Notes: a model not told the origin generated them from the sequence alone. A stretch of DNA of 64,000 nucleotides from Malacoraja senta (GCA_038087875.1 CM075990.1:16618001-16682000), one strand, 5' to 3'. Shown: positions 824 through 37,459, numbered from the stretch's first letter. A program made the numbers and translations.

Positions 824-1803
824 TGATAGGTCCATGGATATGCCAAAAATGGAGGGATATGGATCACGTGCAGGCAGAGTGGATTGACTTGGCATCATGT
901 TCAGCCCAGACATCGTGGGTAAAAGGACTTGTTCATGTGCTGCACTGTTGTACGTTCAACTTTTACTTGGTTTCAACTTGTACAGAAGGTTGTGGTTTGT
1001 GCTTATTTGAGCTTGAGCCACATATCCAGGTGCGGCAATCTGTCTGAATGGAAAATGAGAGACAAGTCCTACCGTAAATGCGTTATGCATTTTAGTCATT
1101 GCATCACTGACGAATGCCCATCGTATGTTTACAGAGGACCGACTGACATTATATAACAAGTAACTTTAATGTCCTTAGCTGATTGAGTTGTTAGATTGCT
1201 TTGGTGGACATTACTAATGGCATTGCCTCCACTCAATGGCATTGAGTATTAATATCCTCCAAACATTACATTACATTTCGCTCAGATGTATGAACAAAAC
1301 GAGCAATATTAATATTTAATAGCAGTTAATATCTTTTAACTGATGTAAATAATTATAGTGACATTAATATAATATATTGGATCCATATATACCCATTGCT
1401 GCTTGAATTTAATAAAAGTAATATATCACAGATTTGCTCATCTGTGTGTCATCAATTAGACTTTAACTAATCATTTTCTTAGGATAATTAAACATTTCAG
1501 TCCATAAATGTTGATTATCCAATACGTGCCTAAATATTTTTAAAGCAACTTAATTATCTGACTGCAATATTAACTGAAGACACAAGGAATGAGGCAAAAT
1601 ACTAAATATTTACAGTAAACACACTTTTAATATGTTGTATGTAAAATGGTGGATGTGGTCAGCAGGATAGGTCACACCCATAGAGAGAAGTAGACTTAAT
1701 GTTTCTGGTCAGCACCTCTTCAGCAGAACCGAAGAATTTACTGATCTGGACTCTATATTCTTAAAAGGACACCGAGGTAGTGAGACAGACACAAATGCTG
1801 TAG

Positions 1804-1945
1804 TCTTCTTCTTCTTGCGTATGGCGTGCACAGGCTAAAGTTGTGGAACAACTTGTTCTATTTGACCTTATTTGCTTGTGCACACCAGGTTGATTGCATT
1901 CGTTGAAACAGGGCGGACCACGTGAAGGTTACAATCTCCCACCCC
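1804..1945 (-). mobile_element. ~142-bp SINE-like element with 5' HDV-like ribozyme and (GAA)n tail, copy 1
   Basis: 10-bp TSD aatgctgtag (1794-1803, 1946-1955); second copy at 36492-36632. Confidence 0.85.
1892..1945 (-). ncRNA. Putative minimal HDV/CPEB3-like self-cleaving ribozyme
   Basis: GGGGUGG-GA-GAUUGUA-ACC-UUCACGU-GGU-CCGCCCU-GU-UUCAA-CGAA-UGCAAUC: P1 with G1.U wobble, P2, P3, L3 and J4/2 CGAA. Confidence 0.75.
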
Positions 1946-3109
1946 AATGCTGTAGCAACTCAGCGGGACAGGCAGCATCTCTGGAGAGAAGGAATGGGTG
2001 ACGTTTCGGGTCGAGACCCTTCTTCAGTCTGAAGATGGGTCTCGACCCAGAAACGCACCCATTCCTTCATCCCGAGATGCTGCTTGTCCCGCTGAGTTAC
2101 TCCAGCATTTTGTGTCTATCTTCGGTGTAAACCAGCATCTGCAGTTCCTATCTTCGAGAAAATGCAGATATTGGAATTGTGTGCAAAATACAAAGTGCTG
2201 GAGGGTCAGGCAGCATCTGTGGAGGGAATGGACATTTCAGGACAGGATCCTTCAGTAGACTCAAAAATTAATCAGCATTAACGTGCTGCCTGACCTGCTG
2301 AGTGGTTCTGGCATTTTGTCTCAAAATTCCAGCAGATGCGGAGTTTTGCTGCAGTCAGCATGATGGCTTGGGTAATGGTTTTGGTTTGTGAGTCTTTACA
2401 CTGCCCAGCAAATAGCGAGACATTCCTCAGATCTCATCTCAGTTTCCCTTCTGCCAATTTGTCCAGGTTGGGAATCATCTCCTTTTGAAGCAGTCCTCCA
2501 CAATTTTGATCCTGGGTTCAGAGTTACAGGAGTGATGGTATTGTCTGTCTATGTTCTGGTCCTGAATACAATTACCCACAGTTTTCCCCAACCTTTCTCC
2601 CTTGATAGTGCAAAATTCAACCCGTGACAATTTGATTGCACTGTCTCCATCCACTCTGTCCACTGAAAGACCATGAACCAGTCAATAAAGAAAAGCTTGA
2701 TGTTTGACATTAGTGCAACTAAAATGTTTGTTAATATAAACAATGGTTTATATATTGTCACATGTACCTAGGTGAAATGAGATTCTGTTTTTACATAGAG
2801 ATCAGTGAGATTATTGGCATACATAAGTACAATTATCGATATGGTCAGTTTTACAGATTTTCAGTTGTTGTGCGTATTTCAATTTTTTATTTTTTATTGT
2901 TGAAGGAATGCAACATTAGTGACTCGTTGGGCATTTACCCCATAAGGATTGTATCGTGTGACCAGTGGCTCCATGTACATATTGCAAAAATGTTTAGTGA
3001 GAAGTTTCCAGAAAGGGTACCCCTCTATAGAAAATTTGTTTGCGTTTGAGGCAGCAGAAGTCTGCAGCAGGGTGATGCCATCCGGTTTGATATCCGTTGG
3101 TGCCAGCAC

Positions 3110-3765: not shown

Positions 3766-5586
3766 TGATTCTGAAAGTCAAGAGCTCTATATATGCAAAT
3801 AACTTTCAGGGTTCAATGATTCAATGATAATTTATTGTATCATGTTAATCCATGATACAGGGTAGGTTGTGTAACCTAGCCTTCAAAACATATGCATCTT
3901 GTCGAAGGTTCCCAGCAGAAACGTCGCCTCTCTATGTTCCCCAGACCTGCTGGCTGACCCACTGAGTTATTTGTGTCTCACTATGTCATAATATAAAGAT
4001 TGCATATTTTATGCACTTTTGTTTTCCGAAGCCATTCGATTCCTGGAGGCTGGAGGCAGGAATCAAACTTAACTTCCAAAGCTTGTACAAATATAGAGAA
4101 GCGTTTGAATCGAATTGAACAACCTGCACATCAAATTTAGATGATTGGATTTGATTTGTGAGTTAACCTTTCTTGTTCTTCAATCAAGTGAGTGGTTGAA
4201 CTTCAAAGTGTGATGAGAGATGAGAACAACGTCACACAAAGTGCCACAGGCACTGAATGCAAAACCTGAGAGGCCTCTAAAAGACAGGCGCCCCGTGCTG
4301 GAGTGACTCACTCACCCAGACCTGCAATGGACCTCACCTCTACCTTATTCTCCGCTCGATCCACACCTTGAATCAACACAACGGGAGTTCTCTGAGTTGT
4401 CTTTACTTGTCTGTAATTGCAATGCTTCAAGCCGCAGCCTTGGTTTAATGATAGGTTGCTCTTGTCTGAGTTACAAGTCTGTGTGTTCAAGTCTCACCTC
4501 ACAGACATAATCTAGGCTGGCGTTCTCATGAAACTCTGACGAAGGGCTGCACCATCTGAATTGCCATCTTTCACATGTTCCAACCTGAAATGTCACCCAT
4601 CCTTTTCCGCCAGAGTTGCTGCCTGACCCGCTGAGTTACTCCAGCATTTTGTGTCTATCTGTATGAGAACAATTATCCTTGCATCTGAAGAAGGGTCTCG
4701 ACCGGAAACGTCCCCCTTTTTATCCAGAGATGCTGCCTGACCCGCTGAGTTAGTCCAGCACTTTCTGTCTCTCATCATGTTTGACTGAGTGAGTGTCTTT
4801 GCTGCAGTTGATGGGAGTGGGTGAATTGGGTTTGATGAAGGTTGGTGAGTGCCAGAGATGGTGGCGAAGACAGGTATCATAGTGTCATCTAAGAGGGATT
4901 TCGATGGGCACATGGATAAGCATGGAATGGAGGCAAATGGATCATGTGCAAATACATGAGATTAATTTATCTTGCTATCATGTTCGTCACAGACATTGTG
5001 GGCAGAAGGGCCTGTTCCTGAGCTGTACTGTTCTAGGGCCTAAAGTACGGATAATTTGGCAATAGCTCAGTCCAAAACTGGGGTCAAGGAAAGAGCGTTC
5101 ATGTCGCGGCCCAGTTTCCACCAATCCTTCCACCACCAAGCACAAGAAACGCAAGACAGACACCATTGTATGCAGATGCCGAGAAGTGTGATCAGCTCTT
5201 GCTGAACAACTTCTAATCTTCTGTGTGGACTTGATAAGAAGAAGTCCTAAACTGTTGAAGAAATGAGAAGTTTCCTTATCTGTGGCTTTTTAAATTAAAG
5301 TTCTGAACCTTTAGAGACTCCAGTTACTCTGGGATCAGTGTTTGAAAGAATTGCTTCTGGTCAGAATGTATTTGAGATCGTATTCTCCATATTGTTCATT
5401 GTGGACTCTGATCCAGGAGATAGGATAAGAACATCTATCTCCCTGATGTTAAAGGCATAGTGTTGATGTCTGTCGGCAGTTTAGTTATAAAGTCTGTTGG
5501 AGAAGTATGATGTCAGGAGAGGAACTGTGTGTGAATATCCATCCATGAATCTCAGGGTGAGGCATGTAAGCCAGTGTAGCTCAGAG

Positions 5587-8142
5587 ATAGAAACATAGAA
5601 ATTAGGTGCAGGAGTAGGCCATTCGGCCCTTCGAGCCTGCACCGCCATTCAATATGATCATGGCTGATCATCCAACTCAGTATCCCGTACCTGCCTTCTC
5701 TCCATACCTCCTGATACCTTTAGCCACAAGGGCCACATCTAACTCCCTCTTAAATATAGCCAATGAACTGGCCTCAACTACCTTCTGTGGCAGAGAATTC
5801 CAGAAATTCACCACTCTCTGTGTGAAAAATGTTTTTCTTATCTCGGTCCTAAAAGACTTCCCCCTTATCCTTAAGCTGTGACCCCTTGTCCTGGACTTCC
5901 CCAACATCGGGAGCAATCTTCCTGCATCTAGCCTGTCCAACCCCTTAAGAATTTTGTAAGTTTCTATAAGAACCCCTCTCAATCCTAAATTCTAGAGAGT
6001 ATAAACCAAGTCTATCCAGTCTTTCTTCATAAGACAGTCCTGACATCCCAGGAATCAGTCTGGTGAACCTTCTCTGCACTCCCTCTATGGCAATAATGTC
6101 CTTCCTCAGATTTGGAGACCAAAACTGTACGCAATACTCCAGGTGTGGTCTCACCAAGACCCTGTACAACTGCAGTAGAACCTCCCTGCTCCTATACTCA
6201 AATCCTTTTGCTATGAAAGCTAACATACCATTCGCTTTCTTCACTGCCTGCTGCACCTGCATGCCTACTTTCAATGACTGGTGTACCATGACACCCAGGT
6301 CTCGCTGCATCTCCCCTTTTCCTAGTCGGCCACCATTTAGATAATAGTCTGCTTTCCTGTTTTTGCCACCAAAATGGATAACCTCACATTTATCCACATT
6401 ATACTGCATCTGCCAAACATTTGCCCACTCACCCAGCCTATCCAAATCACCTTGCAGTCTCCTAGCATCCTCCTCACAGCTAACACTGCCCCCCAGCTTC
6501 GTGTCATCCGCAAACTTGGAGATATTGCCTTCAATTCCCTCATCCAGATCATTAATATATATTGTAAATAGCTGGGGTCCCAGCACTGAGCCTTGCGGTA
6601 CCCCACTAGTCACTGCCTGCCATTGTGAAAAGGACCCGTTTATTCCTACTCTTTGCTTCCTGTTTGCCAGCCAGTTCTCTATCCACATCAATACTGAACC
6701 CCAAATGCCATGTGCTTTAAGTTTGTATACTAATCTCTTATGTGGGACCTTGTCGAAAGCCTTCTGGAAGTCCAGTTACACCACATCCACTGGTTCTCCC
6801 CTATCCACGCTACTAGTTACATCCTCGAAAAATTCTATCAGATTCGTCAGACATGATTTACCTTTCGTAAATCCATGCTGACTTTGTCCAATGATTTCAT
6901 CACTTTCCAAATGTGCTGCTATCCCATCTTTAATAACTGACTCTAGCAGTTTCCCCACTACCGATGTTAGACTAACTGGTCTGTAATTCCCCGTTTTCTC
7001 TCTCCCTCCCTTCTTGAAAAGTGGGGTTACGTTTGCTACCCGCCAATCCTCAGGAACTACTCCAGAATCTAAAGAGTTTTGAAAGATTATTACTAATGCA
7101 TCCACTATTTCTGGAGCTACTTCCTTAAGTACTCTGGGATGCAGCCTATCTGGCCCTGGGGATTTATCGGCCTTTAATCCATTCAATGTACCCAACACCA
7201 CTTCCCCACTAACCTGGATTTCACTCAATTCCTCCAACTCCTTTGACCCGCGGTCCCCTGCTATTTCCGGCAGATTATTTATGTCTTCCTTAGTGAAGAC
7301 GGAACCAAAGTAGTTATTCAATTGGTCCGCCATATCCTTGTTGCCCATGATCAACTCACCTGTTTCTGACTGCAAGGGACCTACATTTGTTTTAACTAAT
7401 CTCTTTCTTTTCACATATCTATAAAAACTTTTGCAGTCAGTTTTTATGTTCTCTGCCAGTTTTCTTTCATAATCTATTTTTCCTTTCCTAATTAAGCCGT
7501 TTGTCCTCCTATGCTGGTCTCTGAATTTCTCCCAGTCCTCCGGTATGCTGCTTTTTCTGGCTAATTTGTGTGCATCATCCTTCGCTTTGATACCATCCCT
7601 GATTTCCCTTGTTATCCACGGATGCACTACCTTCCCTGATTTATTCTTTTGCCAAACTGGGATGAACAATTTTTGTAGTTCATCCATGCAGTCTTTAAAT
7701 GTCTTCCATTGCATATCCACCGTCAATCCTTTTAGAATTAATTGCCAGTCAATCTTGGCCAATTCACGTCTCATACCCTCAAAGTTACCTTTCTTTACGT
7801 TCAGAACCATTGTTTCTGAATTAACAATGTCACTCTCCATCCTAATGAAGAACTCAATCATATTATGGTCACTCTTGCCCAAGGGGGCACGTACAACAAG
7901 ACTGCTAACTAACCCTTCCTCATTACTCAATACCCAGTCTAAAATAGCCTGCTCTCTCGTTGGTTCCTCTACATGTTGATTTAGATAACTATCCCGCATA
8001 CATTCCAAGAAATCCTCTTCCTCAGCACCCCTGCCAATTTGATTCACCCAATCTATATGTAGATTGAAGTCACCCATTATAACTGTTTTGCCTTTGTCGC
8101 ACGCATTTCTAATTTCCTGTTTGATGCCATCCCCAACTTCAC
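5587..8142 (-). mobile_element. 5'-truncated HER1-type CR1 LINE: partial APE endonuclease plus RT, broken by a stop/frameshifts
   Basis: ORFs 6776-8161 (GDFN, LDWVL, SDH, KSPGPD, NYRPVSLTS, QHGF), 5945-6691 (GVPQGSVLGP, FADD) and 5677-5982; (TTTCTATG)-type tail. Confidence 0.95.
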
Positions 8143-8693
8143 TAGTTGGATATGGTATCAAACAGATGGGAGCATGGATGTGTAGGAAGGAACTGCAGAT
8201 ACTGGTTTAAACTAAAGTTAGACATAAAATGCTGGAGTAACTCGGGATAGGCAGCTTCTCTCGATAGAAAGATTGGGTGACATTTCGGGACGAGACCCTT
8301 CTTCAGACGCAAGGATAACTGTTCTCATACAGACAGAAAATAGACAATAGGTGCAGGAGAAGGCCCTTCAAGCCATTCAATGTGATCATGGCTGATCATC
8401 CACAATCAGCACCCTGTTCCTGCCTTCTCCCCATATGCTGGCTGCCTTTTTGAGGCAGCGAGTCCTGTCAATCCCTTCAATGGTGGGGAGGTCGGTACCC
8501 CTGATGGACCGGGCAGTGTCCACCACGCTTTGCAAGTAGTTGCTTCCGCATTTTCTTATCCTTTTGGTTTGCTTGCAGCCGTTGATTAATATTGATGTCC
8601 AGGGTATACCAAGCCATTCCTGGAGTCCTGGCTGCCTTTTGGAGTTCCCGCTGCAAGAAGTCTGATACCTGAACTACACTGGCTGTGGGCAGT

Positions 8694-10405: not shown

Positions 10406-12566
10406 TGCCTCTGTATACCATCTTGAAGATCTCCTCCCATCCGTAGGTTTTCCATCTATTTTGTCTCGTTCACTCTCGTGCTTTGTTCTCTTCACCTCCT
10501 CTCTCTGTAACTGAAACACTCTTGTCTTCTCACTGTTCCTTACAGTTGTGATGAAGAGCCGTTGACCTAAAATGTTGCCTCTCCAATGATGCTGCTCGAC
10601 CTGCTGAGTGCTTAGAGCATTCTGTTTGATATCTTTTGAATGCTTTGATTATCCATTTCCAATGGCCTAATGAGCAATACATTCCTGACCATCTCAGCTC
10701 TCTGTCTATAAAGAGTTGGGGGATTATGCTAAAGCAAATTCTTTTGTTTTTACCTAAGACTAAAATGGATTTTAAAGTAATCCATGAACTTCCGGGCACC
10801 ACTTGGGCAGGGGTAGTGGGAGCACCACAGATCTCACACACTCGACCACCACACACGATGCTCCAGTTTGTTTAGTGAATCACGGTACAAAACCATTGAC
10901 GTGTAGCTGAGCTTGTCCAAGTGGGCAGACAGCGGAGGGCTGAAGTTGACCTTACTTCCTTGAAAATTCACTTCAAGATTCAAGAGAGTTTATTGTCATG
11001 TGTCCCAGATAGGACAATGAAATTCTTGCTTTGCTTCAGCACAACAGAACATAGAAGGCATAAATAAATACAGAACAGATCAGTGTGACCATTGTATAAA
11101 TATATACGCACATGAATAAATAAACTGATAAAGTGCAAATAAACTGATAATGGGCTTTTAATGTTCAGAGTTTTGAACATGACTTTATGACCATTGGGTG
11201 CTTGAACCACAATCCACAACTCTAACCTCAGCAACTCTAAACACCAATGCATCGTGTCTCTGTTGATCAACACACTTTGTTTTTGGACTCGTGTGATTAT
11301 CAAGTTTTATGGTTACTAATTGATTGCATGTTTGGTTGTTATATGTGAGCTGAGTGTATTGCGTTTGCGGGTTTGTTAAACTGCTGCAAGTAGGAATTGT
11401 TCCGTTATTGGTCACTCATGACAGTTGAAGACTCTTGACTCTGTTGGCACTTGAACCCAGCTCGATGGCTCCCGGCCAGTCCTGACAAATATCACACCCG
11501 TCAAGGAGTTGTGTAAACTGTCAGTGACCCATCCAATATGACCCCTCTGAACATCAAGCTCTCCTTGTCCCATTTGACCAATGGTTTCATGGAACCGTTG
11601 TGGAGAATATACCAGGCATTGCTGCAGTGGCCCTCCATTCCTAAGGAATGTTATCTGGGAATTGGACCGTCTGCCAGCCATCCACACGTACGGATGGTGG
11701 ACCTCTGAAGATGTCCGCACTCTGATATCTCCCACACTGGGCTCGTCTGAAGAATGGTCTCGACCAGAAACGTCACCCATTCCTTCTCACCAGAGATGCT
11801 GCCTGTCCAGCTGAGTTACTCCAGCATTTTGTGTCTAACTTCGTTTTTTAGCCAGCATCTGCAGTTCCTTCCTGCACATAAGGTGCACAGCAGACGGGTT
11901 TGTTTTCAACATTGACCTTGTGAATGCTGTTGACTCTCAAGTAAACAGCAAAATTGTCAGAAAAAGGGAACAGTGGTATTTATAATAGTGGTAGGTTGGT
12001 TATTTTTGAAATAATTCCAATATATTGCTTGCATCAGCTGTCTGCGATGTGTTTAGTTTGGAGATCTAGCGTGTTCTCATTGCATTTTTGGACGGAGTCT
12101 GTTCCTCAGCTCCAAACATCGCAGTTATCTCTTGCGACTAAGAATCCATATCTGATGCTGCTGGTGTAACAAGCAAGAGAGAATGGTGTTGTTCAATTTT
12201 CAAAAACAATCTGGGATTTATTTTCACTGATTTTCCATTGTAAGGGAGGGGAAGACTTGATTACAGCAAGAAAACCATGCACATCAGCAGCAAAGTGGAT
12301 CTATACAACAAAATCCATAAAGTTATAACAGAAATAGGAGCTGGGTGGTACTGCAGTCATTACTTCCAGCCGAAACCAGTGTCGTTTTAATGAGACCTTC
12401 CTCCAGCAACTTGTCTTCAGTTTTTGTTCTTTGCACCAATAAACACAAGATGTCAGCTTTTCAAAAGATCTGTAATCAATATCCTTCCACTGCACCATAT
12501 AGAAAAGCTGACTGCATCAAATTCCAATCACTGTGGAGTCAGTCATCCCAACTGCGCATTGATCCC

Positions 12567-13105
12567 TGTGTGCTTTTGCGCAGAGCGTGCGTGTGTGTTC
12601 ATGTGTGTGTATGTGCATGTGTGTGTATGCCCGTGTGTGTATGTGTATGTGTGTGCGTATGTGTGTGTGGTGTGTTTGTATATATGTGTGTGTGTGTGCG
12701 AGAGCGTATGTGTGTGCGTGTGCATGTGTGTGTGTGTGTGCATGTGTGTGTGTGTGCATGTGTGTGTGTGCATGTGTGTGTGTGCATGTGTGTGTGTGCA
12801 TGTGTGTGTGTGCGTGAGCGTGTGTGCATGTGTGTGTGTGTGTATGTGTGCGTGTGCATGTGTGTGTGTATATGTGTGCATGTGTGTGTGTGTATGTTTG
12901 TGCACGTGTGTGCATGCGTGTATGTGTGGTGTGTTTGTATATATGTGTGTGTGTGTGTATGTTTGTGTGCATGTGTGTGTGGTGTGTTTGTATATATGTG
13001 TGTGTGTGTGTGCGCGGGCGTGTGTGCATGTGTGTGTGTGCGCGTGTGTGTGTTTGTGTGGTGTTTGTGTATGTGTGTGCGTGCGAATGTGTGTGTGGTG
13101 TGTGT
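12567..13105. repeat. Degenerate (TG)n microsatellite
   Basis: Seen directly. Confidence 0.95.
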
Positions 13106-15115
13106 ACAGTTTAGTTTATTGTCACGTGTACCAAGGTACAGTGAAAAGCTTTTATTGAGTGCTATCCTGTCAGTGGAAAGATTATATATGATTATAATCA
13201 AGCCATTTACAGGTATACTCAAAATGCTGGAGTAACTCAGCTGGTTAGGGAGCATCCCTGGAGAGAAGGGATGAGCGAGGTTTCGGGTCAAGACGCTTCT
13301 TCAGACGAAGAAGGGTCTCGACCCGAAACGTCCCCATTCCTTCTCTCCAGAGATGCTGCCTCACCAGCTGAGTTACTCCAGCATTTTGTGTCTCCCTTCG
13401 ATTTAAACCAGCATCTGCAGTTCTTTCTTACACAAGCCATTTAAAGTGTATCGATACATGATAAGCGAATAACTTTAATGCAAGGTAAAGTCCGATCAAA
13501 GATAGACCTCTCTGTGATTGATCTTTGTGTTTGTGGTGTGCGTGTGTCAGTGTGTGTGTCTGATCAGTTTAGTTTAGTTTATTGTCACGTGTACCGAGGT
13601 ACAGTGAAAAGCTTTTGTTGCGTGCTATCAGGTCAGTGGAAAGACAATACATGATTAAACCCCTGTCTCACGGTGCGAGCTGACCCACGAGGTACCCAGA
13701 GCTTAAAACAAATTTAACTCGTGGTAATCACGTACGATTAACGTAGCGGGAACGTCGGAACTCGTGGACGCAACTTAGCGACTCTTGGCACTAACAGCAG
13801 GTACCCGTGAAACTTGTTAACTCTTGGAAAAATTCAAACATGTTTAAACTTTTCCACGAATAAAATGTATTCTTGAGGTTAAAATTTGAAACATTTAAAC
13901 ACGTAAGAACGCAGTGGCCCGTGCGATTACCTTAGTGACTCGTGAGTCTACCGTGGGCACTCTTTAACTCAGCAGGCAGGCAGCATCTCTGGAGAGAAGG
14001 AATGGGTGATGGGATGACATTTCCAAATTTGGGGGGGAGTGGGTGGTTGGAGGAGGGAGGGGGGGGGTGGAGGAGAGAGGGTGGAGAGTGGAGGGAGAGG
14101 AGGGGGAGACAGATGGGGGTGTCTTCATTCACTAGCGGCTGGTGCCGGTCACTGAAACAGGCAGGTGAGATTTCACATCCACCTTGTGTGTGTGTGTCTC
14201 TCTCTCCCTCCCTGCCTCTCACACAGGCTGAGAGACTCTGCCTCTGTGAGTGTACGTCTCTTTCTCCCCCTCTCCCACACACAGTAAGACCGAGGTAAGT
14301 CCATCTGTGTAAGTCCATCTGTGTCTCCCACATACACAGTAAAACTCTGCTTTTGTATATACGTCTCCCCCCATTTCTCTCTTCCCCCCCCCACCTCTCT
14401 CTTTCTCCCCCACACACAATAAGACCAATGTATTCTGCTTAGTCTCTCTTCCCTCCCACACACACAGATAGACTGAGGTCCTGTGCGCTCTTTCTCTCTC
14501 CCCCACAGTCACGCCGAAGTACACCACACTGCCTCTGTGCCTCTCTCTCTCTGTCTCTCTCCCCCTCTCTCCTTCATACACAGTCAGAGGTCCACACTGC
14601 CTCTGTGCCTCTCTCTCTGTGTCTCTCTTCCCCTCTCTCCTTCATACACAGTCAGAGGTCCACACTGTCTCTGTGTCTCTCTCTCCCCTACACACACACA
14701 CAGACTGAGGTACACACTGCCCGTTGTGTGTGTGTGTCTGCCTCTGTCTCTCTCTCCCACACACACAGTTAAAGGTACTCCACGCTGCCTGTGTGTGTGT
14801 GTGTGTGTCTCTCTCTCTCTGTCCCACCCCCCACACCCACACACAGTCAGTCAGTCAGAGGAACTCCACACTGTGTGTGTGTGTGTGTGTGTGTGTGCGC
14901 CTCTGTCTCTCCCTTTCACAGTCAGAGTGAGGAACTCCCCCCGCAGTCTCTCCGCGGCCTCTCCCCGGGCAGGGTGCATCTGCCTCCCTCAGGCTGCCCA
15001 GGCAGTCAAACACGACTCCGGTGGCGGGCTCCATGCACAGCTCCTGCCGGCCGGCTGGGAGCGGCGACGGAGGACAGGGGGAAGTTGGCCACCAGCGGGG
15101 CAGTCTCGGCTCTCC

Positions 15116-16317: not shown

Positions 16318-17786
16318 TTAACCTGACCCCCCAACCTCCCTCCACCTCAACTCACGCCTGGGCACCAAAGCAGCTCAGGAGGCGAACCCTGAGCTCCGTC
16401 TCCCAACAATCTGATGTGCGCATCCGTCCACATTCAAATATTTAATCTCCAGTCTCCCCGCAGTGTGTAGACCTGGCAGTAAATTCAATTAAAATATAGC
16501 AAACCTCCGCCTGCTGGTCTTCTAACTACGTGATGTGTGTTTCAAACAAATCATCAGTATAACTGCCCTGGCACTGGACGGTGCGCATTTTCCCTTTGTA
16601 GGTCACATAAATAGATGCGGCTGCGCTGAATTCTATCTTTAACTCAAAGCCGCAGGATGGAGATGTTGCTTATTAAAACAGACCTTCATTGAAGGTTGGC
16701 TCAAGAGTAACTCGGGAAAGGAACTTGTTAACTCGGGAGACGAACTTGGAACATCGCAGAAATGACAGTTAACGGCAAACTTGAGTCATACCCGTGGGAA
16801 CTCGGTTAAACCCTTGATCATACACTTGGAATCTCGTGCACAACCACGAGTCTTTCGCTCGGGGTACCTCGTGGGTCAACTCGCACCGTGAGACAGGGCT
16901 ATTACAATCGAGCCATTCACAGTGTATAGATACACGATAAGGGAATAACGTTTAGTGCAAGGTAAAGCCAGCAAAGTCCGATCAAAGATAGTCCTCTCTG
17001 TGTGTGTGCGTACGTGCACAAACGCTGTTATGCAATTACATTAATAATTGTGCACAAACTTTCAGGAGAAGATTGAAGCCAAGAATGGAAAAAAATACTT
17101 ACTAACAAAATCTGCCATTTATTTTTGCACTGCGCTTTATTTAAATAAAAGGTGATGACTATATATGTCTTCCTTTGTATCAGCTCATACATTGAAATGT
17201 CAAATGGCTTATTCAGTGTCTACCATTGAGGGACAATAGACTTACTTCACTGCAGGGCAATATTTAAATAACATCAATTATAATAATACTCTAAATCTTA
17301 AATTGCTTATATCACTGTACTCTATCACTGTGGTTTCAGTAATTGCTTAATTTTATCTTTGCGCTAATTATGAGGCATGATCAGAGTCTTGGAAGTTTAT
17401 AATGACTATTGTCTTTTATGGGTATGTTGTACATAGCGAGGAGGTGACAATACAGAGGATCCGGATTAAATAATGACTTTTCTTGTTGGTCACTTGATTA
17501 CAGACATTGAGAATACAGCTGATCTTAATCTGTGAAGGAATTAGTAAATTGCCAGTAAATTCTGTGAGTAAGCCGTGGGACCAATTTAGCGATTGTTCAG
17601 CTTCATGCAGTAGGTTTTGTAAAACACAGCGTCTCAGATAATCAGCTTGTTCTCCATTCCTGTGCTGTTTCATGGGCAGAGTGTGAGCAATGGCGCAGGG
17701 GCTGCCACTAGGGGACTGTAGGGCTCCATAACAAACACTGACAAACAAAAGACAATTCCCCTCATGCTGTCCAATGTTGTCGTGGA

Positions 17787-22302
<4,516 letters not shown>

Positions 22303-22761
22303 CTGAATTTCCAAATTGAAGAGCAATATACAATCAAAGAATGAAATACAATTGTCTTTAATTTCTGTTGAATAGTGACTTTAAATGTGTGCTTGGGAAA
22401 TCAGAGCTTTTTCATTGTGAGTGATTTCTGCACAAACAAATGGCATTAACTGATTCAATTTATGTTAAGTAAAATGCGCCATATGCTGCTTTAGCAGACT
22501 TTGACATGTAAGTAAAAATTGATCTCTGCCTAATGAATAATGCAAGGCCATTTTCCTCTTAATGCATAATGTTCTGTGGTCTGCCAGTGTATTCGTGTTT
22601 ATTAAGAAATCACCGCAATGCTTTTAAAGAAATGTGGTCTAATGACAAGGAATAATATGCTGTTTGCAAATGAATCCGAGCAATCTTCTCATTTGAAATC
22701 AGGTTTAAATTTGAATTTCACAGTTCAAAATGCCATCCGATTAGATGCCAACACAAGGTGA

Positions 22762-27475: not shown

Positions 27476-27876
27476 GGGTGGGGTGGGGGGGCTAGGGAGG
27501 TGGTAGGGACAAGGCCACAGAGCAGACAGAGGAAGAGGTGGGTGGTAACTGTGTTTTGTCAGCCCATGGCTCAGGCCATGAATCAAGCAGGCTGCATGGA
27601 TGCTTGGTGTTCAAACGTGATTCACTGAATCCCAGAGAAGGCATGATGAGCTGTTCCTGGTCATAATCGCCAACCAGAATTTAAATTTAAAACATTTTTC
27701 TCCCTTCTGCTCTCTGCCTTGAAGCTGTTGACTTCTCGCTGGGATTTATTCCAGCAGATTCTTTACTTTGCTCGTGGCCATAATTCATTGGGGGGCCATG
27801 ACAGTAAATGTTGCCAGATTCTGTGACTGCAATGCAATTATTCCTGTCGAGTCTGATGCAGTCCTTGCTTGGCAAT

Positions 27877-28405
<529 letters not shown>

Positions 28406-29156
28406 ATTTTGCATTCTTTGTTTTGCAAACAGTTCAGTAAAGTTAGACAATGAATAAGCCCAATCCTAAATAAGTACAGAAGAGCAGCCTGAGGCCTACC
28501 CTGGTGGAGCAGTGACTTGGGCAACGCCAAGGGCAACAATGTCTTGGGCTGAAGATCTGTTGTTTTCACATCTTGCACTCCCTTTCTAACCATCCATATC
28601 TACAGTTTCCCTCTCCCCTGACTCACAGTCTAAAGAAGGGTCTCGACCCGAAACGTCACCCATTCCTTCTCTCCAGAGATGCTGCCTGTCCTGCTGAGTT
28701 ACTCCAGCATTTTATGTCTATCTTTGGACTTAAGGTAGTGGCTGACTCCCCCCCCTCCCCCCTGTCCTCTCCCCCCCCCCCCCCTCCGCAAACAGGCAGA
28801 GTTAGGAGGAAGAGCAAATGAGCAAACAAATATCTGGCAGAAGCTACAAGGAGAGGATTTTAATCTCCCTAATATTAGCTGAGATACAATTAATGCAAAA
28901 GGTGTAGAGGGCATGGAAATTCCGAAATTGTATTCCGTGTACATTTTTTTTAGTCACCATGTAGTGAGAATGAAGCCGGATCAGCAGGGGAAAGGATTTG
29001 CGGTCGTGGATAAGTTAGACTTAACGTAATTATGGAAAAGGAATAGAGGCATTGGCCAGCTGTGTTAGAATGTGAAGTGATTTGATTTAGCAAAAGTGGA
29101 TGGGAAACGACCACTTAAAGATAGATCAGTCTCAGAGCGATGTAAGGAATTTAACA

Positions 29157-36278: not shown

Positions 36279-36491
36279 TAAGGCAGTAGCTCTACTGCTG
36301 CCACCCTTTAGTTTTTCTAAACACAAAATGCAGAGAGCAAAGAGAACAAATTGGTGGGTAGATAAATTGATGTGCAGACAAAGGCTAGAGATGGAGGCAA
36401 AAGGGTGACAAAAAGAAATAAAAAATGAGGCTTTGGGGTGTCAGATAAGGAGAGAAGAGGATTGAAAGGCAAAGCCAGAGGAAAGGATGAC

Positions 36492-36632
36492 TTCTTCTTC
36501 TTGCGTATGGCGTGCACAGCCTAAAGTTGTAGGACAACTTGTTCTATTTGATCTTAATTGATTGTGCACGCCAGGGTGATTGCATTCGTCGAAACAGGGA
36601 GGACCACGTGAAGGTTGCAATCTCCCCACCTC
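36492..36632 (-). mobile_element. HDV-like-ribozyme SINE, copy 2 (ribozyme 36578-36632, two P1 mismatches)
   Basis: Homologous to 1804-1945; TSD g(a/g)aaggatgac (36481-91, 36633-43). Confidence 0.85.
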
Positions 36633-37459
36633 GGAAGGATGACAGTGGCGATGGGTGGTGGGGGAGCACAATAGGGTGGGGGGGGGGGGCACGGGAAAGA
36701 AAGGTTGAACAAAAGGAGTGTGTAATCTAAAATTGGAGAATTAAACGTTTGTACCACTGCTACTCAAGCTACTCTGTGTAGGATAGAACTGGTTTAAAAT
36801 GAAGATAGACATGCTGGAGTATCTCAGCGGGTCAGGCAGCATTCTCTCAAGAGATGCTGCCTGTCCCGCTGAGTTACTCCAGAATTTTGTGTCTATCTTC
36901 TGCATAATCTACCCTGGCGGAATAGGAAGGCAGACAAAAATGCTGGAGAAACTCAGCGGTTGAGGGAGCATCTATGGAGCGAAGGAATGGGCGACGTTTC
37001 GGGTCGAGACCCTTCTTCAGACTGATCTGGTTTCCAGCTTTTTTGTCTACCTTCGGGTTTTCCAGCATCTGCAGTTCTTTCTTAAACACTGATGGGATAT
37101 GCAGTGCTGTTAACACCGGGAGATCATTGGTCCGGAAAAAGAGGAAGGGAATGTCACACAATTCTGCAAGATAGTGGATCCTAGTTCTGCTACATCTGAT
37201 AATAACAGCCATTTTTACTTAAGTACATGTTTATACACATAATTTACATCTAAATAGCAGATTAACCACTGCATTCATTGCTTTGTAAGTGCTAATCTAG
37301 TAAACACAGATCCACATTAGTCAGTTTTAGTGCATCATTTTTTATACTCAATCGGACCCATCATCACTCAGTCAAAGTAACAAATAAGTGGTAGACACGG
37401 TACCACAGCCACGTTTGCTTTCTCGGGCCAGACCCGGTAACAAATGAGTATTTTGTGAA

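What the first reader, a model, noticed from the sequence alone, without database searches (positions are those of the whole stretch)
1804..1945. Tiny retroposon whose 5' end is a minimal HDV/CPEB3-like ribozyme
Seen: two ~142-bp minus-strand copies (1804-1945, 36492-36632), each with its own TSD and a (GAA)n tail, and no tRNA A/B boxes. The first 54 nt give the consensus GGGGUGG GA GAUUGCA ACC UUCACGU GGU CCGCCCU GU UUCGA CGAA UGCAAUC. This folds as P1 (7 bp, G1.U wobble), P2 (7 bp), P3 (ACC/GGU), L3 UUCACGU, a vestigial P4 and J4/2 CGAA. Known: this is the HDV-like double pseudoknot; L3, the GU after P1 and CGAA match the CPEB3 ribozyme as I recall it, and R2, RTE and L1Tc retrotransposons use such 5' ribozymes. 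In both copies the TSD boundary falls on G1, the predicted cleavage site. Inference: a promoterless, ribozyme-headed SINE that cuts itself out of host transcripts and borrows a LINE RT. I cannot verify whether the family is already described.
Basis: partly seen in the sequence, partly recalled or inferred. Interest (0 to 1): 0.92.

Follow-up and report, generated by a model that had tools for sequence, protein, structure and literature searches.

The report
Ribozyme-headed mini retroposon, CPEB3-type core
A 142-base jumping element present in thousands of copies begins with a stripped-down version of the self-cutting RNA known from the mammalian CPEB3 gene, and a complete jumping gene in the same genome carries the full version, which hints at where that mammalian ribozyme came from.

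Summary
Both window copies are real, each with its own target-site duplication (TSD) and a (GAA)n tail. The 32-nt core has 7,738 matches in the 1.94-Gb genome.

In 28 of 30 copies chosen by their 3' half alone, the TSD abuts G1. The first 54 nt fit the HDV-like double pseudoknot. Related ribozymes in the same genome differ in P1, P2 and P3 yet stay paired: 93% of cells pair, against 37-46% in slid controls. L3, the GU after P1 and J4/2 stay fixed.

A covariance model built without this family finds both window copies (31-33 bits; next hit 12.7). Rfam's CPEB3 model does not hit this family. It does hit relatives at 44-64 bits (cut-off 35). Among them is a young 3.15-kb LINE encoding endonuclease and reverse transcriptase, with a (GAA)n tail, which is the likely partner.

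No tRNA-like head or A/B boxes were found.

Cleavage itself is untested, and poly(A) RNA reads show no pile of starts at G1.

Ribozyme-headed non-autonomous elements are already known (R2 SIDEs, NARTc). What is new here is a P4-less core in an animal SINE, and CPEB3-type ribozymes on retrotransposons. I found neither in print.

The parts
1804..1945 (-). mini-A retroposon, copy 1 (142 nt): ribozyme, hairpin body and (GAA)n tail
   Evidence: It matches genomic copies at 94-96% identity, and all matches start at query position 1.
1892..1945 (-). 54-nt P4-less HDV-like (CPEB3-type) ribozyme. P1 1939-1945 / 1910-1916; J1/2 1937-1938; P2 1930-1936 / 1892-1898; P3 1927-1929 / 1917-1919; L3 1920-1926; J1/4 GU 1908-1909; P4 remnant 1903-1907; J4/2 CGAA 1899-1902, whose first C (1902) is the predicted catalytic C. 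The predicted cut is 5' of G at 1945.
   Evidence: Descriptor, covariation, model R1 at 30.6 bits and E 2e-5, MFE fold.
1822..1887 (-). Body: a long hairpin of about 11 bp (GGYGUGCACAA / CUGUGCACGCC) with an apical stem-loop AAGUUGU-YCY-ACAACUU. It is the likely 3' recognition structure.
   Evidence: MFE fold of locus L007, a copy with the majority letters throughout the ribozyme. This is a prediction only.
1804..1821 (-). Single-stranded tail ..ACGCAAG(AAG)n
   Evidence: It resembles the LINE tails ..GACACGAAAAG(AAG)n and ..GACACGAATCATCATCA.
1946..1955 (-). Upstream TSD copy ctacagcatt, which abuts G1
1794..1803 (-). Downstream TSD copy ctacagcatt
36491..36632 (-). mini-A retroposon, copy 2. 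The ribozyme is 36578-36632. It is decayed: G2>A, an extra G in the P1 5' strand, and G32>U, which breaks the U5.G32 pair. TSD copies lie at 36633-36642 and 36480-36490.
   Evidence: 33.1 bits, E 5e-6
5080..5244 (+). A copy of a second P4-less family (mini-B). The ribozyme reaches 5131, with J4/2 CCAA and tail GATAAG(AAG)n. TSD tcc[a/t]aaact lies at 5071-5079 and 5245-5253.
   Evidence: (51.3 bits). The family has 73 genome matches and scores 43.7 bits on Rfam CPEB3.

Best explanation
The 142-nt repeat is a non-autonomous, LINE-dependent retroposon, called mini-A here. Its first 54 nt are a minimal, P4-less HDV-like ribozyme of the CPEB3 type.

Proposed mechanism:
1. Copies have no recognisable promoter of their own, so they are transcribed as part of whatever host or neighbouring transcript runs through them.
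2. The ribozyme folds into P1/P1.1/P2/P3 and cuts 5' of G1, using the first C of J4/2 (CGAA) as the catalytic base. This makes an RNA that starts exactly at the first base of the element.
3. The 3' hairpin plus the ..ACGCAAG(AAG)n tail is used by the reverse transcriptase of an RTE-like LINE of the same genome. That LINE, LINEa, is 3.15 kb, has one ORF encoding an AP endonuclease and a reverse transcriptase, carries a full CPEB3-type ribozyme at its own 5' end, and ends in ..GACACGAAAAG(AAG)n. The copying is target-primed reverse transcription.
4. The result is full-length copies with 8-14-bp TSDs that abut G1.

Shown here: the anatomy, the copy number, the sharp 5' ends, the conserved fold with compensatory changes, kinship with CPEB3-model ribozymes, and the existence and youth of the LINE.

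Inferred: catalysis, read-through transcription, and the identity of the partner LINE.
For: (1) Family size and ends. There are 7,738 core matches. All 40 scored full-length hits start at query position 1. Of 30 loci picked by the 3' half only, 26 align from position 1-2 and 2 more have the GGGGTGG head right after the TSD with an internal deletion. One is 5'-truncated at about position 12 and one is rearranged. The set includes the window copy itself and one duplicated pair.

(2) Fold. The descriptor hits only this element in about 155 kb searched on both strands. The MFE fold equals P1+P3.

(3) Covariation. The alignment holds 17 ribozymes from 6 families. 93.3% of cells pair, against 37.4-46.2% when the 3' partners are slid by 1-3 columns. 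18 of 26 pairs change on both sides (P2 6 of 7, P1 3 of 7, P3 2 of 3). In 0 of 500 shuffles is the percentage paired or the covariation score reached. Invariant columns include U20 U21 C22 C24 U26 of L3, C35 U36 G37 U38, and A46 A47 of J4/2. G25 and C44, the first base of J4/2, are kept in at least 90% of the rows.

(4) Leave-family-out model. R1 was built without mini-A, with P2+P3+P4 as its structure. Run on the window with filters off, it scores mini-A copies at 33.1 and 30.6 bits (E 5e-6 and 2e-5). The next non-family hit scores 12.7 bits (E 0.53).

(5) Kinship with CPEB3. Rfam RF00622 searched in the genome gives 39 of 60 listed matches over the 35-bit cut-off, the best at 64.2 bits. By family the scores are LINEa 61.3, LINEb 51.4, LINEc 48.2 and mini-B 43.7.

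(6) Partner LINE. The ribozyme is followed by an ORF of 934 aa with Exo_endo_phos and RVT_1 domains. The element has a (GAA)n tail and its own TSD. It has 214 3' ends, at least 100 of them exact, against 14 ribozyme heads.

(7) The ribozyme-LINE link recurs elsewhere. An element whose protein is 51% identical, held on three metagenome contigs, has a 55.6-bit CPEB3 hit at its 5' end. A TSD flanks the whole element, and its tail is GACACGAA + (ATC)n.

(8) No pol III head was found.

(9) Literature. Minimal HDV-like ribozymes lack P4 (PMC10879173, introduction passage). RTE and baggins elements carry HDV-like ribozymes and lack their own promoters (PMC6765202, passage).
Against: Cleavage was not assayed.

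Rfam's CPEB3 model and every other Rfam ribozyme model give no hit on mini-A at E<=10.

In raw poly(A) RNA-seq reads (run X24, about 6% of the run read) the element is covered in both orientations, at depth about 40-200 per bin. The tool lists no place where many molecules begin or end, so there is no pile of starts at 1945. Poly(A) selection and the 7,700 near-identical copies make this a weak test.

P4 is reduced to 5 nt. How fast such a core cuts is unknown.

The body of mini-A shows no similarity to LINEa beyond the last 13 nt or so, so the partner is assigned on the tail alone.

The six families are related and the structure was read from these sequences, so the covariation counts overstate the number of independent events.
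Confidence: 0.78

Rival explanations
1. Relic ribozyme. The head descends from a LINE ribozyme but no longer cuts, because P4 is lost. On this view the sharp 5' end comes from a transcription start in a few master copies, or simply from complete reverse transcription of a short RNA.
For: There is no pile of read starts at G1. Rfam gives no hit on mini-A. Short SINEs are usually full-length whatever defines their 5' end.
Against: Relative to every relative, mini-A has changed P1 (3 pairs), all 7 pairs but one of P2, and 2 pairs of P3, and it still pairs perfectly, while L3, GU and CGAA are untouched. That pattern is expected only if the lineage leading to the master copy was selected for the fold. 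A second P4-less family keeps the same core. P4-less HDV-like ribozymes are a described natural class (PMC10879173). No promoter motifs were found.
Confidence: 0.12
2. Dual promoter and ribozyme. The first 54 bp would also act at the DNA level as an internal promoter, as Pr77 does in L1Tc/NARTc. Copies would then be transcribed from G1 and the ribozyme would only trim read-through RNA.
For: There is a precedent in trypanosomatid L1Tc/NARTc (PMC3383444, abstract). The element's success, 7,738 copies against 214 LINE 3' ends, would be easier to explain with a promoter of its own.
Against: No evidence of promoter activity. No pol III boxes were found. RNA coverage is similar in both orientations, as expected for passive transcription. 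This reading does not exclude the main one.
Confidence: 0.1
3. An ordinary pol III SINE (tRNA, 5S or 7SL head) whose head only looks like a pseudoknot by chance.
For: None beyond the SINE-like size and copy number.
Against: ARAGORN finds no tRNA. Rfam gives no tRNA, 5S or 7SL hit at E<=10. The best A/B-box matches have 3-4 mismatches, the same as shuffles. The fold is recovered by a model built from other families and by covariation.
Confidence: 0.02

Closest known systems
R2 SIDEs and R2/R1 hybrid SIDEs of Drosophila (Eickbush & Eickbush 2012, PMC3414825; abstract read)
   Same: They are non-autonomous retroposons made of a 5' HDV-like ribozyme, which generates the exact 5' end from a co-transcript, plus a LINE 3' end used for target-primed reverse transcription.
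   Different: SIDEs insert site-specifically into rDNA, are rare, and are plain internal deletions of R2/R1 with a large R2-type ribozyme. Mini-A is dispersed, has about 7,700 copies, has a 54-nt P4-less CPEB3-type core, and has a body unrelated to the LINE apart from the tail.
HDV-like ribozymes at the 5' ends of RTE and baggins LINEs (Ruminski et al. 2011, not held; taken from the review PMC6765202, passage)
   Same: The ribozyme sits at the very 5' end of a promoterless LINE encoding endonuclease and reverse transcriptase, which is transcribed as part of other transcripts. LINEa here has that layout.
   Different: As far as I recall, the published cases are mostly from invertebrates and are not of the CPEB3 sequence type. 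The RTE placement of LINEa rests on its architecture and not on a tree.
Mammalian CPEB3 ribozyme (Rfam RF00622)
   Same: The helix order and lengths up to J1/4 are the same. L3 UUCACGU, CCCUGU and J4/2 CGAA are identical to the Rfam consensus. Relatives in this genome score 44-64 bits.
   Different: The CPEB3 ribozyme is a single intronic copy with a P4 helix and is reported only from mammals (PMC8233481, passage). Mini-A lacks P4, differs in the sequences of P1 (distal part), P2 and P3, fails the Rfam model, and is a mobile repeat.
Minimal HDV-like ribozymes (drz-Mtgn) and phage theta ribozymes (PMC10879173, passage)
   Same: They have the double-pseudoknot core without the P4 domain and are about 50-60 nt long.
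   Different: They come from metagenomes and phages, where they sit next to tRNAs, and their eukaryotic occurrence is stated to be unknown. Mini-A is a repeat of an animal genome and descends from a P4-bearing retrotransposon ribozyme.
NARTc / L1Tc Pr77 of trypanosomes, and ribozyme-bearing elements of Schistosoma (hammerhead SINEs; twister variants in non-LTR retrotransposons) (PMC3383444 and PMC8501958 abstracts; PMC6765202 passage)
   Same: These are elements whose 5' end is a self-cleaving ribozyme shared with, or parasitising, a LINE; NARTc and the hammerhead SINEs are non-autonomous.
   Different: The hosts differ. In Schistosoma the ribozyme class differs too (hammerhead, twister). Pr77 is also a promoter, which is not shown here.

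Membership tests
HDV-like (delta-like) self-cleaving ribozymes | Nested double pseudoknot in the strand order P1, P2, P3, L3, P3', P1', J1/4, (P4), J4/2, P2' | tested here: met
   Descriptor; covariation with 93.3% of cells paired and 18 of 26 pairs changed on both sides; model R1 hit.
HDV-like (delta-like) self-cleaving ribozymes | G at +1 in a G.U wobble at the base of P1, with the cleavage site directly 5' of it | tested here: met
   G1.U36 is present in 12 of 16 distinct rows; the 4 exceptions are mini-B rows. The genomic 5' end and the TSD abut G1.
HDV-like (delta-like) self-cleaving ribozymes | Catalytic C at the start of J4/2, a C in L3 pairing with a G in J1/4 (P1.1), and the U/G pair of L3 | tested here: met
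   The C22-G37 pair is invariant in 16 of 16 rows. U20 is invariant, and G25 and C44 are kept in at least 90% of rows. That these residues have those roles is recalled from HDV/CPEB3 structural work and was not tested here.
HDV-like (delta-like) self-cleaving ribozymes | Self-cleavage yielding a 5'-OH and a 2',3'-cyclic phosphate | not testable with these tools
   Poly(A) RNA reads show no pile of starts at G1, which is not decisive.
Rfam RF00622 CPEB3_ribozyme | Score at or above the 35-bit gathering cut-off | tested here: not met
   Mini-A gives no hit at E<=10. Relatives pass: LINEa 61-64, LINEb 51, LINEc 48 and mini-B 44 bits.
Rfam RF00622 CPEB3_ribozyme | Single copy in an intron of the CPEB3 gene | tested here: not met
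   The core has 7,738 dispersed copies.
Pol III SINE (tRNA, 5S or 7SL head) | A head derived from a pol III gene, with internal A/B boxes | tested here: not met
LINE-dependent non-autonomous retroposon | Dispersed copies with variable TSDs, a 3' tail like that of a LINE in the same genome, and no coding capacity | tested here: met
   TSDs of 8-14 bp. (GAA)n tails on mini-A and LINEa. Tail motif ACG.AAG(AAG)n.
SIDE-type element (internal deletion of its own LINE) | Both the 5' ribozyme and the 3' region are co-linear with the parent LINE | tested here: inconclusive
   There is no similarity to LINEa beyond the ribozyme architecture and about 13 nt of tail. No P4-bearing parent with the mini-A helices turned up among 31 pattern matches. 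A lost or unsampled parent is not excluded.
RTE clade of non-LTR retrotransposons (for the partner LINEa) | About 3.2 kb, a single ORF with an AP endonuclease followed by a reverse transcriptase, very short UTRs, and a simple-repeat tail | tested here: met
   Homologues lie on contigs of 3.0-3.4 kb. The list of clade features is recalled.
RTE clade of non-LTR retrotransposons (for the partner LINEa) | Placement of the reverse transcriptase within the RTE clade on a tree with reference elements | not tested
   No named reference RTE sequences were available. The names of the hits are generic.

The most novel reading that the evidence does not exclude
The CPEB3 ribozyme is not a mammalian invention. 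On this reading it is one domesticated copy of a ribozyme lineage that heads RTE-like LINEs and their tiny parasites. This genome would hold that lineage alive. It has a young LINE with the full ribozyme. It has older elements of about 100 nt that are little more than the ribozyme. It has two P4-less derivatives, one of which reached about 7,700 copies. That would also make mini-A the first minimal (P4-less) HDV-like ribozyme with a known eukaryotic host and a known job.
Probability: 0.5. Interest if true: 0.9.

Novelty: new variant of a known kind. Interest (0 to 1): 0.8.

Why it matters
(1) It gives a natural animal context and a clear function, defining the 5' end of a retroposon, for a P4-less HDV-like ribozyme. 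The 2024 theta-ribozyme paper says the origin and role of that class outside phages remain to be determined.

(2) It shows that about 54 nt of ribozyme, a hairpin and a trinucleotide tail are enough for a retroposon to reach thousands of copies, which is a very small self-processing mobile unit.

(3) The CPEB3 ribozyme is reported as 'not found outside of mammals', which leaves it without an outgroup (PMC8233481). Here, CPEB3-model hits of 44-64 bits sit on retrotransposons, and a 55.6-bit hit heads a related LINE on three metagenome contigs. This makes the origin of that memory-linked ribozyme directly testable.

(4) Sense-oriented copies in introns would cut host pre-mRNAs, so the family may shape gene expression and insertion bias.

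Tried and rejected
I used genome searches and cut-out stretches instead.
- Rfam scans of both copies at E<=10: no ribozyme hit. This is explained by the narrow mammalian model together with the loss of P4 and the changed helices. It is recorded as a failed membership test.
- First version of my descriptor: it allowed unlimited G.U pairs and was swamped by (GT)n arrays, giving 4,314 raw hits. I replaced it with a stricter version.
- Sequencing runs: no RNA holder listed.
- Reads laid on 1700-2060: RNA reads of run X24 cover the element, but no starts or ends are listed. The loose ends at 1946 belong to the neighbouring, far more abundant repeat. Contigs of three other runs (organisms A, B and D) hold the family. 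Only D also covers the unique flank.
- Search for a P4-bearing parent with the mini-A helices: 31 pattern matches that differ at the first P4 position (11 A, 18 G, 2 C). The trailing N of the pattern were ignored and the sequence beyond these matches was not examined, so none is shown to be a parent; I take them to be point mutants.
- Local alignment of the mini-A body to the LINEa 5' and 3' ends: only the (GAA)n tail aligns. Mini-B shares 16 of 18 nt of tail, a score no better than the best shuffle.
- Stretches downstream of LINEb, LINEc and LINEd ribozymes: no ORF and no (GAA)n tail. Copies share only the ribozyme plus about 30 nt.
- Metagenome relatives: 3 contigs have the ribozyme, and they look like one element assembled three times. 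4 other loci with 5' sequence (L099-L102) show no hit with Rfam, R1 or the descriptor.
- Earlier scan notes: nothing on this genome or this element.
- Taxon: not determined. A CR1-like ORF of the window has nearest Atlas clusters that are 'commonest Chordata'. My impression that the neighbouring repeats look like those of cartilaginous fishes is recall only.
- Ruminski et al. 2011 is not held.
- Dfam and Repbase could not be searched, so the family may already have a name there.

Full report
**1. Observation**

- Copy 1 spans 1804-1945. It is flanked by the 10-bp duplication ctacagcatt, which abuts the first G on one side and follows the (GAA)n tail on the other.
- Copy 2 spans 36491-36632, with the duplication tcatccttcc / tcatcctttcc. 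It is more decayed.

The 22-nt core occurs twice in the window and never in 100 shuffles.

The window belongs to a 1.94-Gb eukaryotic assembly. I did not determine the taxon. The only hint is that a CR1-like ORF in the window has nearest Atlas clusters that are mostly chordate.

**2. A large family with sharp 5' ends**

A search with the whole element returned 40 scored hits at 94-100% identity, all starting at query position 1. An exhaustive pattern count of the 32-nt core gives 3,875 + 3,863 = 7,738 matches at <=2 mismatches, and 0 for the reversed control.

Picking full-length hits would bias any statement about 5' ends, so I also searched with the 3' half alone and examined those 30 loci:
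- 26 align from position 1 or 2.
- 2 more (L085, L090) carry the GGGGTGG head directly after their TSD but have internal deletions.
- 1 (L086) is truncated near position 12.
- 1 (L087) is rearranged.

The 30 include the window copy, one locus also present in the first set, and one duplicated pair (L077/L078). In the many cases where both TSD copies can be read, the upstream copy ends exactly at G1.

**3. The fold**

The majority sequence reads GGGGUGG GR GAUUGCA ACC UUCACGU GGU CCGCCCU GU UUCRA CGAA UGCAAUC. It forms:
- P1: 7 bp, with G1.U36 and U5.G32 wobbles.
- P2: 7 Watson-Crick pairs.
- P3: 3 bp.

A strict descriptor of the HDV-like topology matched nothing but this element in the 64-kb window plus 91 kb of unrelated flanks, on both strands. 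Copy 1 and 23 of 29 other loci pass. The 6 failures each carry a single helix substitution. Copy 2 fails. An earlier, looser version was useless because (GT)n arrays satisfy it.

ViennaRNA's MFE fold of the 54 nt is exactly P1+P3 (-12.4 kcal/mol), with both P2 strands free. In the whole element the ribozyme and a separate 3' hairpin fold independently, and the tail stays single-stranded.

**4. Relatives in the same genome, and covariation**

Rfam finds nothing on the two copies even at E<=10. Searching the genome with the CPEB3 model (RF00622) gave 60 listed matches, 39 of them over the 35-bit cut-off and the best at 64.2 bits. None of 14 control genomes reached the cut-off.

Reading these loci shows several families:

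| Family | What it is |
|---|---|
| LINEa | Full ribozyme with an 8-bp P4, followed by a LINE ORF |
| LINEb, LINEc, LINEd | Full ribozymes whose copies share only about 30 nt downstream |
| mini-B | Second P4-less family of about 165 nt with a (GAA)n tail; 73 genome matches, one in the window at 5080-5244 |

All of them keep L3 UUCACGU (with rare variants), CCCUGU, and CGAA or CCAA.

I aligned 17 ribozymes. Six 5'-truncated copies (L036, L039, L041, L042, L046, L048), one rearranged copy (L047) and two copies with a deletion in the P1 3' strand (L049, L053) were left out. The proposed structure, pseudoknots included, fares as follows:
- 93.3% of cells pair, against 37.4-46.2% when the 3' partners are slid by 1-3 columns.
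- 18 of 26 pairs change on both sides: P2 6 of 7, P1 3 of 7, P3 2 of 3, P4 7 of 8.
- No shuffle in 500 reaches the observed percentage paired or covariation score.

Mini-A differs from every other family in P1 positions 5-7, in six of the seven P2 pairs and in P3 (ACC/GGU instead of GCG/CGC), yet it pairs throughout. The caveat is that the families are related and the structure was read from these sequences, so the cells are not independent events.

**5. Formal test of kinship**

I built a covariance model (R1) from the 13 non-mini-A sequences, with P2+P3+P4 as its structure. I ran it over the whole window with filters off:

| Hit | Bits | E-value |
|---|---|---|
| mini-B copy, 5079-5131 | 51.3 | 1.9e-10 |
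| mini-A copy 2 | 33.1 | 5e-6 |
| mini-A copy 1 | 30.6 | 2e-5 |
| next best | 12.7 | 0.53 |

The Rfam alignments print the CPEB3 consensus (..GGGGGCCAcaGCAGAAGCGUUCACGUCGCGGCCCCUGUCAG..CUGCGAAUUCUGCU). On that model LINEa scores 61.3 bits, LINEb 51.4, LINEc 48.2 and mini-B 43.7, while mini-A (L007) gives no hit. Mini-A is therefore a structural and evolutionary relative of the CPEB3-type ribozymes, but not a member of RF00622 by Rfam's own criterion.

**6. The partner LINE**

In locus L054 the LINEa ribozyme is followed by a 934-aa ORF with Exo_endo_phos and RVT_1 domains. Then comes a 3' UTR of about 230 nt ending ..GACACGAAAAGAAGAAGAAGAG. A 12-bp TSD brackets about 3.15 kb.

The family is young and mostly 5'-truncated: 214 3' ends at <=3 mismatches, at least 100 of them exact, against 14 ribozyme heads.

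Its protein has 46-63% identical relatives on 3.0-3.4-kb contigs and in aphids, moths, sea urchins, amphioxus, fishes and a lizard. This architecture is the one I recall for the RTE clade. I did not build a tree.

Tails compared:
- mini-A ends ..AUACGCAAG(AAG)n.
- mini-B ends ..GACUCGAUAAG(AAG)n, which shares 16 of 18 nt with LINEa, a score no better than the best shuffle.

Beyond the tail, the mini-A body shows no similarity to LINEa. The LINE is thus the best candidate partner, but the link rests on the tail.

**7. The ribozyme-LINE link elsewhere**

A scan of metagenome contigs with the LINEa protein gave 15 loci.

Three contigs (L096-L098) appear to be one element assembled three times, with a protein 51% identical to LINEa. 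Each has:
- A 55.6-bit CPEB3 hit (60 bits with R1) about 150 nt before the ORF match.
- The P1, P2 and P3 sequences of the Rfam consensus.
- A 10-bp TSD that brackets the element from the G run of the ribozyme to a tail ..GAGACACGAATCATCATCA.

The motif GACACGAA followed by a trinucleotide repeat is thus shared with LINEa. Four other loci with 5' sequence (L099-L102) show no ribozyme by Rfam, R1 or my descriptor.

**8. What is not a promoter, and what the RNA shows**

- ARAGORN finds no tRNA.
- The best A-box and B-box matches have 3-4 mismatches, as in shuffles.
- No RNA holder was listed for the stretch.
- Raw poly(A) RNA reads of run X24 (about 6% of the run read) cover the element in both orientations at depth about 40-200 per bin. 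The tool lists no place where many molecules begin or end.

This does not support cleavage. It is also a poor test: the library is poly(A)-selected, there are thousands of near-identical copies, and a far more abundant repeat abuts G1 in this copy.

Contigs of runs from three other coded organisms (A, B and D) hold the family. Only D also covers the unique flank.

**9. Mechanism**

The best reading is a promoterless, ribozyme-headed, LINE-dependent retroposon. Read-through transcripts are cut 5' of G1 by the minimal ribozyme. The 3' hairpin and the trinucleotide tail recruit the LINE's reverse transcriptase. Target-primed reverse transcription then yields full-length copies with TSDs that abut G1.

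- Shown: anatomy, copy number, sharp ends, conserved fold, kinship, and the LINE.
- Inferred: catalysis, mode of transcription, and partner.

P4-less HDV-like ribozymes are a described natural class (PMC10879173, passage). I recall that they are active, but I did not see that stated.

**10. Comparison with what is known**

Ribozyme-headed non-autonomous retroposons are known:
- R2 SIDEs (PMC3414825, abstract).
- NARTc (PMC3383444, abstract).

Three things seem new: the P4-less core in an animal repeat, its scale, and the CPEB3 sequence type on retrotransposons. [quoted passage not shown]

My searches for such a report found none, and the passages I read mention none. The library lacks most subscription journals, and Dfam and Repbase could not be queried.

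**11. Verdict**

I classify it as a new variant of a known kind.

The boldest reading the data allow is that the mammalian CPEB3 ribozyme is a domesticated member of this retrotransposon ribozyme lineage.

Noticed in passing
window 5080-5244 (+): A copy of a second P4-less ribozyme-headed retroposon (mini-B), with J4/2 CCAA, tail GATAAG(AAG)n and TSD tcc[a/t]aaact. The family has only 73 genome matches but passes Rfam CPEB3 at 43.7 bits.
   Followed up: partly
loci L043, L045, L049-L053; window 5079: In mini-B the P1 register puts the canonical position 1 on the base before the GGGG run. That base is T in 6 of the 7 loci and in the window copy, and it belongs to the TSD in the 3 cases that can be read. 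The element's first G therefore pairs with C, not with the usual U. Either P1 is 6 bp here or the cut site is shifted.
   Followed up: partly
L036, L037, L039, L044, L047 (LINEb); L038, L041, L046, L048 (LINEc); L055-L062: These are full CPEB3-type ribozymes (48-51 bits on Rfam). Their copies share only the ribozyme plus about 30 nt (ACCACACCACACACTG.. or ACCACGCTACACTAACTAACCAACTGTA), and no ORF follows. They may be old retroposons of about 100 nt that are little more than a ribozyme.
   Followed up: partly
window 1946-2037 and locus L004: Copy 1 sits inside another, far more abundant repeat. An independent mini-A copy (L004) is inserted at the same position of that repeat. The base before G1 is T in 13 of 26 copies and G in 1 of 26. 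This hints at a target-site preference.
   Followed up: no
locus L002 / L068: The (GAA)n tail is expanded to more than 25 units in one copy. The family may seed GAA microsatellites.
   Followed up: no
L033:1668-1798: A perfect palindrome of about 130 nt is inserted in a LINEa copy. It hits several plant miRNA-precursor models below their cut-offs on both strands. It looks like a MITE-type insertion and not like a miRNA.
   Followed up: no
window 12500-13250, 17400-22400, 27800-28450, 48000-48400: Very long, impure (GT)n/(CA)n arrays, one of them about 5 kb.
   Followed up: no
window 5945-8206 (-): Two adjoining open frames (276 aa and 476 aa) of a CR1/L2-like LINE encoding endonuclease and reverse transcriptase. 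It is unrelated to LINEa. Its nearest Atlas clusters are mostly chordate.
   Followed up: partly
window about 52870-53100: A run of N, either masked or a gap.
   Followed up: no
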